Shown one piece after another: positions 50,850 through 50,982 of a stretch of DNA of 64,000 nucleotides (position 1 is its first letter; every line of letters begins with the position of its first letter). This stretch comes from an uncultured Clostridium sp. (lineage in GTDB: Bacteria > Bacillota > Clostridia > TANB77 > CAG-508). Location: positions 5,765-69,764 of the forward strand of contig CAMPBS010000004.1 in NCBI GenBank assembly GCA_946639585.1, read 5' to 3'. Made by a program: the position numbers and the translations under genes. The notes beneath the pieces are model-generated. The model was not told the origin of the DNA. It did not search any database and was given only the letters and a program-made list of their open reading frames with translations.

Positions 50850-50982
50850 GCCCAATATAATATTTTTTGTGAACGCTGTGGGGACCGACAAATTAGAAAG
50901 CCTTATAAAAAAAGTTTTGGAGAACTTTTTTATATAGGCTTTCTTATGCAGTTGGGGGAGAACAAAAAACATTATATTGGGC
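50850..50982 (+). repeat. Palindromic GC-core element, family B, copy 1 (133 bp)
   Basis: Arms GCCCAATATAATATTTTTTGT / ACAAAAAACATTATATTGGGC. Core GAACGCTGTGGGGACCGACAAATT - inner hairpin AGAAAGCCTTATAAAAAAAGTT..AACTTTTTTATATAGGCTTTCT - TATGCAGTTGGGGGAGA. Lies between the divergent polA and rlu genes. Confidence 0.7.

What the first reader, a model, noticed from the sequence alone, without database searches (positions are those of the whole stretch)
50850..50982. Family B: a second ~135-bp palindromic GC-core element (two full copies plus one half copy)
The full copies are at 50850..50982 and 54380..54517. Both have the core GAACGCTGTGGGGACCGACAAATT, a 22-bp inner hairpin, then TATG(C/T)AGTTGGGGGAGA, differing at only about three positions. 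Their 21-25-nt outer arms are quite different in sequence but each pair is complementary. Both sides of the internal loop are G-rich (GTGGGGAC and GTTGGGGGAG), so they cannot pair with each other. A truncated copy (left arm plus 18 nt of core) abuts the stop codon of the sortase gene at 37822..37861. All copies are intergenic, and both full copies sit next to promoters (polA/rlu divergent region; upstream of rpsT).
Basis: seen in the sequence. Interest (0 to 1): 0.6.

Follow-up and report, generated by a model that had tools for sequence, protein, structure and literature searches.

The report
Mobile hairpin repeat with conserved core
The two 135-base palindromes and the half copy belong to an undescribed family of gene-less, hairpin-forming mobile repeats in uncultured rumen and gut Clostridia; the family is a new variant of a known kind of bacterial "junk" repeat, with a folded core that selection clearly maintains.

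Summary
Full copies lie at 50850-50982 and 54380-54517, and a truncated copy at 37823-37861. The 1.15-Mb genome has 19 copies, 15 of them full, and the cores are 94-100% identical.

The same scan had already noted two other copies of this family on other windows of this genome (rhodanese/lepA and fmt/stp spacers).

Each copy has AT-rich inverted arms: a conserved inner part of about 16 nt and a locus-specific outer part. The arms flank a core of about 90 nt. The core has two conserved G-rich boxes, a 5-bp helix (CCRAC/GUUGG) and an apical hairpin that varies in sequence but always folds.

Relatives occur in 28 of 201 sampled genomes of the genus and in two sister genera. I found none in 98 genomes of the four other families sampled in the order. 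Three helices show compensatory changes.

Nine of the 19 sites are empty in the sister species. One site is polymorphic between strains. Four sites carry the core in the opposite orientation in close relatives. I found no ORF, no consistent target duplication, no Rfam match and no phage or plasmid match.

Best reading (0.55): a non-autonomous element similar to REPINs and MITEs, propagated as a folded single strand by an unidentified enzyme. It lands just downstream of genes. The link to promoters and the G-quadruplex idea are not supported.

The parts
50850..50870 (+). Copy 1, left arm (gcccaatataatattttttgt). The inner ~16 nt match the family's conserved arm; the outer 'gccc' is locus-specific.
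50871..50894 (+). Copy 1, left conserved box GAACGCTGTGGGGACCGACAAATT. It contains the 5' half of helix P2 (CCGAC).
50895..50944 (+). Copy 1, apical hairpin P3. The sequence varies between subfamilies, but the hairpin is always kept.
50945..50961 (+). Copy 1, right conserved box TATGCAGTTGGGGGAGA. It contains the 3' half of P2 (GTTGG).
50962..50982 (+). Copy 1, right arm. It is complementary to 50850-50870 with one A/C mismatch.
51007..51028 (+). Solo arm-like sequence agcaaaaacattatatatcagc, 24 nt to the right of copy 1. It matches the arm that abuts the same flank (tttacatata) in the sister species, where the core is inverted.
   Evidence: L003/L054
54380..54404 (+). Copy 2, left arm. Other strains have a perfect 22-nt arm; this genome carries a 2-3-nt insertion in it.
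54405..54428 (+). Copy 2, left conserved box.
54429..54478 (+). Copy 2, apical hairpin P3.
54479..54495 (+). Copy 2, right conserved box (TATGTAGTTGGGGGAGA).
54496..54517 (+). Copy 2, right arm.
37823..37843 (+). Truncated copy, left arm (cataagatatattatttttgc).
37844..37861 (+). Truncated copy, first 18 nt of the core (AAACGCTGTGGGGACCGA). The rest is missing. The copy abuts the 3' end of the minus-strand ORF 37864-38565.

Best explanation
Family B is a gene-less mobile DNA repeat of the same general kind as REPINs, BIMEs, ERIC or Correia elements.

**Shown**
- It is multi-copy and nearly identical within a genome.
- It is patchily distributed within one bacterial family.
- It is present or absent at orthologous sites between species and between strains.
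- It always lies between genes, usually right after a stop codon, and in either orientation.
- Three helices keep their pairing through compensatory changes, while the purine-rich loops between them stay constant. The helices are the arm base next to the core, an extra 5-bp helix P1b in most relatives, and the apical hairpin P3.

**Inferred**
- Selection acts on the folded single strand because that fold is what a trans-acting enzyme recognises to copy or move the element, as for the hairpins of REP/REPIN and IS200/IS605 ends. The element encodes no such enzyme. The G-rich strand is the folded one.
- The AT-rich arms let the element extrude as a hairpin and take part in choosing the landing site. 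Landing sites are hairpin loops or sequences that already resemble an arm.
- Because the arms are palindromic and similar between families, cores can be inverted or replaced in place.
- For the host the element is probably close to neutral. When co-transcribed it adds a long RNA hairpin at the 3' ends of genes.
For: **Copy number and identity.** The genome has 19 copies. Fifteen cores are 94-100% identical to copy 1, seven of them at 100%.

**Distribution.** The exact 24-mer occurs in only 3 other species genomes out of 185,579. It occurs in 30 true metagenome contigs; a 31st match, L055, is GC-rich and a chance hit. The broader motif occurs in 28 of 201 genomes of the genus at 1-17 copies, with no control hits. 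It also occurs in two sister genera, including one genome with 14 copies. It occurs in 0 of 98 genomes sampled from four other families of the order.

**Mobility.** Nine of the 19 sites are empty in the sister species G042. The dCMP-deaminase/yebC spacer is filled in two contigs and empty in this genome and in one other contig (L139), with flanks about 97% identical.

**No coding capacity or partner.** No copy or locus carries an ORF between the boxes.

**Structure under selection.**
- The closing dinucleotide next to the core is AC/GT, GT/AC, GC/GC or AT/AT. Watson-Crick pairing holds in 67 of 72 cells, against 40.9 +/- 4 in shuffles; 0 of 2000 shuffles reach the observed value.
- P1b has five pair combinations, all complementary.
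- P3 has at least seven unrelated sequences, all hairpins, with G-C/U-A/C-G swaps at the same positions.
- The P2 variants keep pairing only on the G-rich strand.

**Landing in hairpins.**
- A Family-A element sits inside the P3 loop of a B element (L120), and a REP-like hairpin sits in another P3 (L118).
- Four or five of the nine empty sites in G042 hold a terminator-like hairpin exactly there.

**Orientation.**
- Seven copies lie co-directional with the neighbouring genes and six lie opposite.
- The core is inverted at four shared sites in close relatives.

**Precedent.** Compensatory changes in REPIN hairpins, and a tailed hairpin proposed as the transposition intermediate, are described in PMC3116915.
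Against: - No mobilising enzyme was identified.
- The RAYT-like genes of this genus are flanked by a different repeat (TTTGGGGACA), never by B boxes. B-carrying genomes are not enriched for them: 21 of 28 against 152 of 201. The only copy in this genome is frameshifted.
- No movement was observed directly.
- The polarity of the one clean polymorphism is unknown; it could be an insertion or a deletion.
- A core more conserved than the terminal repeats, with covarying helices, is also what a functional RNA would show.
Confidence: 0.55

Rival explanations
1. It is a functional structured RNA: a multi-copy small RNA, or a cis-acting 3'-end element. The conserved purine-rich internal loops bind a protein or ligand, and the helices only need to pair.
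For: - The loops are conserved between helices that covary (P1b, P2, P3 and the arm base) across genera.
- In most relatives the loop next to P2 has GA on both strands. That is the arrangement of tandem sheared G-A pairs seen in kink-turn-like motifs; this reading comes from the sequences and is inference.
- The G-U pair in P2 is tolerated on one strand only.
- The copies sit at gene 3' ends.
Against: - Orientation relative to the flanking genes is random, 7 co-directional and 6 opposite. It also flips between close strains. That is hard to reconcile with a strand-specific cis role.
- No promoter or terminator lies inside the conserved part.
- Copy number ranges from 0 to 17 among species of one genus.
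- Nine sites are empty in the sister species.
- There is no Rfam match.
Confidence: 0.17
2. It is an ordinary MITE: a deletion derivative of a DDE-type insertion sequence, moved by cut-and-paste through its terminal inverted repeats. The core is a passenger.
For: - The inner ~16 nt of the arms are conserved and shared with Family A, which has an unrelated core.
- Size, copy number and insertion polymorphism all fit.
- A 5-nt repeat (ATATT) borders the one polymorphic insertion.
Against: - There is no consistent direct target duplication of 4 nt or more in 32 copies.
- The core is more conserved than the arms and shows compensatory evolution, which a passenger would not.
- At the polymorphic site the outer 15 nt of one arm is present in the empty allele too. 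The unit that differs is therefore not bounded by two complete inverted repeats.
- No autonomous relative was found.
Confidence: 0.12
3. The cores spread and are homogenised mainly by recombination or template switching between the similar palindromic arms (gene conversion), not by a dedicated transposase. The arms act as resident docking palindromes.
For: - The same orthologous sites hold B1, B2, B3 or Family A in different species.
- The core is inverted inside identical arms between strains with 98.8% identical flanks.
- Identity falls off from core to inner arm to outer arm.
- Indels are concerted in both arms: T5/A5 against T6/A6 at the shared site just left of the window.
Against: - At the empty sites of the sister species the arms are absent together with the core.
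- Solo arm palindromes are rare in this genome, 2-3 in all.
- Arms of 16-25 bp are short substrates for homologous recombination.
Confidence: 0.12

Closest known systems
REPINs / BIMEs (REP doublets forming hairpins, mobilised by RAYT Y1 transposases; PMC3116915, PMC6006769)
   Same: - Extragenic, gene-less and multi-copy.
- Forms a long hairpin as a single strand.
- Compensatory changes keep the hairpin.
- No classical target duplication.
- Distribution is restricted to a lineage.
- The unit that differs at the polymorphic site looks like a hairpin with one long unpaired arm. This resembles the tailed intermediate proposed for REPINs.
   Different: - The most conserved parts are two G-rich boxes in direct orientation that stay unpaired, rather than two inverted REP sequences.
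- The RAYT-like genes here are flanked by another repeat, TTTGGGGACA.
- B presence does not track RAYT presence.
Correia (NEMIS) elements of Neisseria and ERIC/IRU elements of enterobacteria (from my own knowledge)
   Same: - Imperfect palindromes of about 100-150 bp with terminal inverted repeats.
- Intergenic, in either orientation, and often co-transcribed with neighbouring genes as a long RNA hairpin.
   Different: - Those elements have TA-type target duplications and no covarying internal helices around conserved loops.
- There is no sequence similarity.
- They occur in a different phylum.
IS200/IS605 ends and their gene-less derivatives (PATEs)
   Same: - Recognition of folded single-stranded hairpins.
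- No target duplication.
- Strand asymmetry.
   Different: - Those elements have asymmetric left and right ends, not long inverted arms.
- They insert next to a fixed 4-5-nt target, which I could not define here.
- No TnpA or TnpB partner was seen.
Family A of the same genome (24 copies; window 6322-6460 and 11302-11446)
   Same: - Same architecture.
- Similar AT-rich arms (AAAATATATTAATTTT against AAGATATATTGTTTTT).
- Same kind of site; in the sister species it even occupies sites that hold Family B here.
   Different: The GC-rich core is unrelated.

Membership tests
MITE (DDE-transposase-derived) | Short, non-coding, with terminal inverted repeats conserved between copies | tested here: met
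   Length is 133-138 bp and there is no ORF. The inner ~16 nt of the arms are conserved in 27 copies.
MITE (DDE-transposase-derived) | Direct target-site duplication of fixed length | tested here: not met
   No consistent direct repeat of 4 nt or more flanks 32 copies. A single 5-nt ATATT repeat lies at the one polymorphic site.
MITE (DDE-transposase-derived) | Autonomous insertion sequence with the same ends | tested here: inconclusive
   No locus has the two boxes separated by a gene. Insertion sequences are often missing from metagenome-assembled genomes.
REP / REPIN-RAYT system | Extragenic hairpin repeats with compensatory changes | tested here: met
REP / REPIN-RAYT system | Two copies of the conserved REP sequence in inverted orientation | tested here: not met
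   The two conserved G-rich boxes lie on the same strand and do not pair with each other, apart from the 5-bp P2 helix.
REP / REPIN-RAYT system | Cognate RAYT gene flanked by the same repeat (REPtron) | tested here: not met
   In six of the twelve RAYT-like loci examined, from seven genomes, the gene lies between TTT(T)GGG(G)ACA repeats in inverted orientation; one further locus has them on one side only, and five have no match. None has a B box. The G042 protein scores 77.1 bits against NF047646, just under its 80-bit cut-off.
Rfam RNA families (ribozymes, riboswitches, sRNAs, 6S) | Match to a curated covariance model | tested here: not met
   Nothing at gathering score. Only microRNA-type hairpin noise at E up to 10. 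Nothing for five variants from the genus.
Intrinsic terminator | GC-rich stem followed by a T-run | tested here: not met
   No terminator-like site in or at either window copy.
Intramolecular G-quadruplex | Four G-runs within one element | tested here: not met
   Only two runs are present, GGGG and GGGGG. In most relatives the second run is GGG. Actual folding cannot be tested with these tools.
Integron attC sites | Arrayed after cassettes in one orientation next to intI, with conserved boxes at the outer ends | tested here: not met
   The copies are dispersed on 14 contigs among housekeeping genes, in both orientations, and the conserved part is central. intI itself was not searched for.

The most novel reading that the evidence does not exclude
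The element moves as a folded single strand with one long unpaired arm, and it integrates where that arm can pair with a pre-existing arm-like sequence. This would be homology-guided integration without a guide RNA. The palindromic arms would then act as two-way docking sites in which cores of several families (A, B1, B2, B3) are flipped or exchanged like cassettes. The conserved core fold (P1b, a GA/GA loop, P2, P3) would be the recognition module of an enzyme that has not been identified.
Probability: 0.15. Interest if true: 0.7.

Novelty: new variant of a known kind. Interest (0 to 1): 0.5.

Why it matters
Hairpin repeats such as REPs and REPINs are well studied in Proteobacteria and hardly at all in Firmicutes. 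Here a group of uncultured rumen and gut Clostridia with small genomes carries several such families.

The REP hairpins (about 70 copies by eye in the listing), Family A (24 copies) and Family B (19 copies) add up to more than 100 copies per 1.15 Mb.

Family B has a core whose fold is kept by selection across genera, and its orientation changes between strains. That gives a tractable system for three questions:
- how gene-less hairpin elements choose their targets;
- how they are copied;
- whether they replace transcription terminators.

In practical terms, these repeats break metagenome assemblies. Many contigs end inside them. They could also be mistaken for RNA genes.

Tried and rejected
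1. **Known RNA family.** Rfam gave nothing, at gathering score or in E-value mode, for the window copy or for five variants from the genus.
2. **Phage or plasmid origin.** No match.
3. **Classical target duplication.** None found.
4. **Arms as pre-existing palindromes into which only the core inserts.** Rejected as a general rule. The arms are missing together with the core at the empty sites of the sister species. Solo palindromes with the arm motif are rare: two (G000 C2:75854 and C11:20046), plus the single arm-like sequence at window 51007-51028. Arm-like 10-12-mers outside elements occur at background frequency.
5. **RAYT as the cognate mobiliser.** Neither the flanking repeats nor co-occurrence support it.
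6. **Promoter association.** Not supported.
7. **G-quadruplex.** Only two G-runs per element.
8. **An alignment-based consensus fold on a MAFFT alignment of all subfamilies.** It was mis-registered by one column in P3. I therefore counted pairs by anchoring on the conserved boxes.
9. **More filled/empty pairs through exact-protein look-ups.** Four look-ups found nothing on record, and three returned only filled alleles.

Full report
**1. Observation**

- Copy 1: left arm 50850-50870, box GAACGCTGTGGGGACCGACAAATT 50871-50894, a 50-nt hairpin 50895-50944, box TATGCAGTTGGGGGAGA 50945-50961, right arm 50962-50982.
- Copy 2 has the same parts at 54380-54517. Its core differs at two positions.
- The truncated copy at 37823-37861 keeps the left arm and 18 nt of core, and abuts the 3' end of the minus-strand ORF 37864-38565.
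- The repeat finder recovers the same families (D2 and D6, I3 and I13).
- As a single strand the element folds at -49.8 kcal/mol, against -24.1 +/- 3.3 for shuffles.

**2. The family in this genome**

The window lies in a 1.15-Mb, 29% G+C assembly of 41 contigs.

- The core 15-mer occurs 19 times at up to 2 mismatches: 15 full copies, one with an internal deletion, and three truncated.
- All three truncated copies keep the left arm and the 5' part of the core. No remnant keeps only the right side.
- The 15 full cores are 94-100% identical to copy 1, seven of them at 100%.
- The arms behave differently. Counting outward from the core, there is a variable purine-pyrimidine dinucleotide, then about 16 conserved nucleotides (consensus AAGATATATTGTTTTT). 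After that come 5-10 nt that differ between copies yet still match the opposite arm in 70-80% of copies.

**3. Relatives**

- The exact 24-mer left box is found in only three other species genomes of 185,579. All are uncultured Clostridia from rabbit, goat omasum and one further sample. It is also found in 30 true metagenome contigs, many of which end inside the element. A 31st match (L055) is GC-rich and a chance hit.
- A shorter motif, GGGGACC[G/A]ACAAATTA, occurs in 28 of 201 sampled genomes of the genus at 1-17 copies, with no hits to the reversed control.
- It also occurs in two other genera of the same family; one genome there has 14 copies. It does not occur in 98 genomes sampled from four other families of the order.
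- The usual form in the genus is: AT-rich arm, GAAGTAAC, AATTCGGGGGGA, CCRAC, AAATT, hairpin, TATGNA, GTTGG, GA, GTTAC, arm.
- The form in this window (B1) is a derived variant that lacks the 3' partner of the GTAAC/GTTAC helix.

**4. Evidence that a fold is selected**

- The dinucleotide next to the core is AC/GT, GT/AC, GC/GC or AT/AT. These are all four purine-pyrimidine combinations, each matched on the other side. Watson-Crick pairing holds in 67 of 72 cells, against 40.9 +/- 4.0 when partners are shuffled; 0 of 2000 shuffles reach the observed value. The copies are related, so this count overstates independence.
- The extra helix P1b occurs as GTAAC/GTTAC, GTGAC/GTCAC, GCAAC/GTTGC, GTGCC/GGCAC and ATAAC/GTTAT.
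- The apical hairpin has at least seven unrelated sequences, all of them hairpins. It is mosaic: the rabbit-gut copies share a hairpin tip but differ in the base, and others show the reverse.
- The 5-bp helix CCGAC/GTTGG contains a G-T pair. Its variants (CCAAC in 5 of 57 distinct copies, CTGAC once) keep pairing on the G-rich strand and would be mismatched on the other strand.
- Between these helices the loops are constant.

**5. Evidence of mobility**

I joined the flanks of all 19 copies into one query and searched the sister species G042, whose flanks are 80-93% identical.

- Nine sites align straight across the junction, so they are empty there.
- Two sites carry B1 copies.
- One carries a diverged subfamily, B2.
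- One, upstream of rpsT (the site of window copy 2), carries a related element, B3.
- Two carry Family A.
- Two carry other palindromes.
- The last two sites were not resolved. One is the site of the internally deleted copy (C2), where G042 has about 130 unidentified bases. The other is the sortase site of the truncated window copy (C4_43611), where G042 has no B remnant.

At four or five of the nine empty sites G042 has a terminator-like hairpin exactly where this genome has the element.

A cleaner case comes from strains with about 97% identical flanks.

- In the dCMP-deaminase/yebC spacer, this genome and one other contig (L139) read ...AATCTAAGATATATT|CTATAAT....
- Two other contigs have GTTTTTGGT, the core, and ACCAAAAACAATATATCTTGGGATTAATATT inserted at the bar.
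- The segment that differs therefore has one complete arm but only 9 nt of the other. The outer 15 nt of that other arm is present in both alleles, and ATATT stands at both borders.
- The outgroup has only a degenerate TGAAGCTAACAAAGA there.
- This fits two readings: integration next to a sequence that already matches the arm, or deletion between 5-nt repeats across a hairpin. I cannot tell which allele is older.

**6. Orientation**

Relative to neighbouring genes, the full copies are co-directional seven times and opposite six times.

At four sites the core is inverted relative to the same flanks in close relatives:
- the copy just left of the window, and window copy 1, both against G042 (BLAST strands; sequences);
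- contig C14 against a metagenome strain with 98.8% identical flanks and the same arms;
- contig C9 against a strain with 100% identical flanks over 388 nt but a different junction.

Next to window copy 1, a solo arm-like sequence at 51007-51028 matches the arm that abuts the same flank in G042. Whether these cases are inversions in place, replacements through the shared palindromic arms, or repeated insertions into a hot spot is not settled.

**7. Where it lands**

- Twelve of 15 full copies (13 if a 48-aa ORF is counted) begin 0-37 nt after a stop codon. They lie about 80 nt or more before the next gene. Two lie between divergent genes, including window copy 1.
- The promoter-like hexamers for rluA and rpsT lie outside the elements, and no terminator-like site is detected in them.
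- Nested cases show that hairpin loops are used as targets. A Family-A element with its own arms sits in the apical loop of a B element in another genome, and a REP-like hairpin sits in another.

**8. Search for the enzyme**

- No copy encloses an ORF.
- The genome has one RAYT-like gene, frameshifted into 82-aa and 168-aa pieces.
- Its intact 253-aa homologue in G042 scores 77.1 bits against NCBIfam NF047646, whose cut-off is 80.
- Such genes are common in the genus: 152 of 201 genomes, with 1-9 per genome.
- In six of the twelve loci examined the gene lies between TTT(T)GGG(G)ACA repeats in inverted orientation, the classical REPtron layout. One further locus has them on one side only, and five have no match. 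None has a B box.
- B-carrying genomes are not enriched for these genes: 21 of 28 against 152 of 201.
- The shared hexamer GGGGAC between that REP family (about 70 copies here) and the B left box is noted but unexplained.

**9. Comparison with known kinds**

- The closest described systems are REPINs and BIMEs. These are extragenic hairpins with compensatory changes, and a tailed hairpin has been proposed as their intermediate (PMC3116915; PMC6006769).
- By architecture, Correia and ERIC elements are also close (my own knowledge).
- Family B fails two defining tests for REPINs: it lacks inverted REP doublets, and it lacks a cognate flanking RAYT.
- It fails the target-duplication test for classical MITEs.
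- It has no Rfam, phage or plasmid counterpart.
- I therefore file it as a new variant of the known class of gene-less palindromic mobile repeats.

**10. Limits**

- The assemblies are metagenome bins.
- The orthologous empty sites in G042 are too diverged to place the junctions exactly.
- The mechanistic model rests on one clean polymorphic site.

Noticed in passing
window 6322-6460 and 11302-11446 (opposite orientations): Family A is a second nested-palindrome family with 24 copies in this genome. Its core is CCGCGTAAGCGACCAACCGGAGCGAAGCGCAGGGCGACTGGAGCAAC...GTTGCGACACCAAGG. Its arms (AAAATATATTAATTTTAAAA) resemble those of Family B. In the sister species it occupies two sites that hold Family B here. 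It has no Rfam match at gathering score.
   Followed up: partly
window 46323-46398; about 70 copies genome-wide: A REP-type hairpin family, TTTT(G)GGGACACTCCCCAAAA, often occurs as long doublets. It flanks the RAYT-like genes of this genus in inverted orientation, the REPtron layout.
   Followed up: partly
G000 contig C9:37262-38034 (locus L104 1450-2222), outside the window: The only RAYT-like (REP-associated tyrosine transposase) gene of this genome is split into 82-aa and 168-aa ORFs by what looks like a 1-nt deletion. The break is not at a CGG codon. The sister species has an intact 253-aa gene.
   Followed up: partly
G000 contig C4:5615-5755, 10-150 nt before the start of the window: A further full Family-B copy lies just outside the window, on the minus strand. 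The sister species and a metagenome strain have it at the same site with the core inverted. Both arms there carry T6/A6 instead of T5/A5.
   Followed up: yes
L120 (genome G122), around positions 1440-1760 of the reverse strand: A three-level nested palindrome: a Family-A-like element with its own arms is inserted in the apical loop of a Family-B element. The whole 330 nt folds at -110 kcal/mol.
   Followed up: partly
G043 (SRR873608_bin.84), contigs C8 and C10: Two contigs of this bin are 98-100% identical to the window's genome. The rest of the bin matches at only about 70-78%, so the bin looks chimeric.
   Followed up: no
window 50871-50894, minus strand: The reverse strand of the left box contains CGG (TCGGTC). 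Earlier notes of this scan say this codon is nearly unused and read as a +1 shift in this lineage. All copies are intergenic, so no consequence is expected.
   Followed up: no
G000 C2:75854 and C11:20046: Two solo AT-rich palindromes carry the arm motif without any core. One is caataatatatattgttt-tt-aaacaatatatattattg, directly after a gene and before a tRNA. They could be unoccupied targets, footprints or ordinary terminators. The sister species has a different palindrome at the first site.
   Followed up: partly
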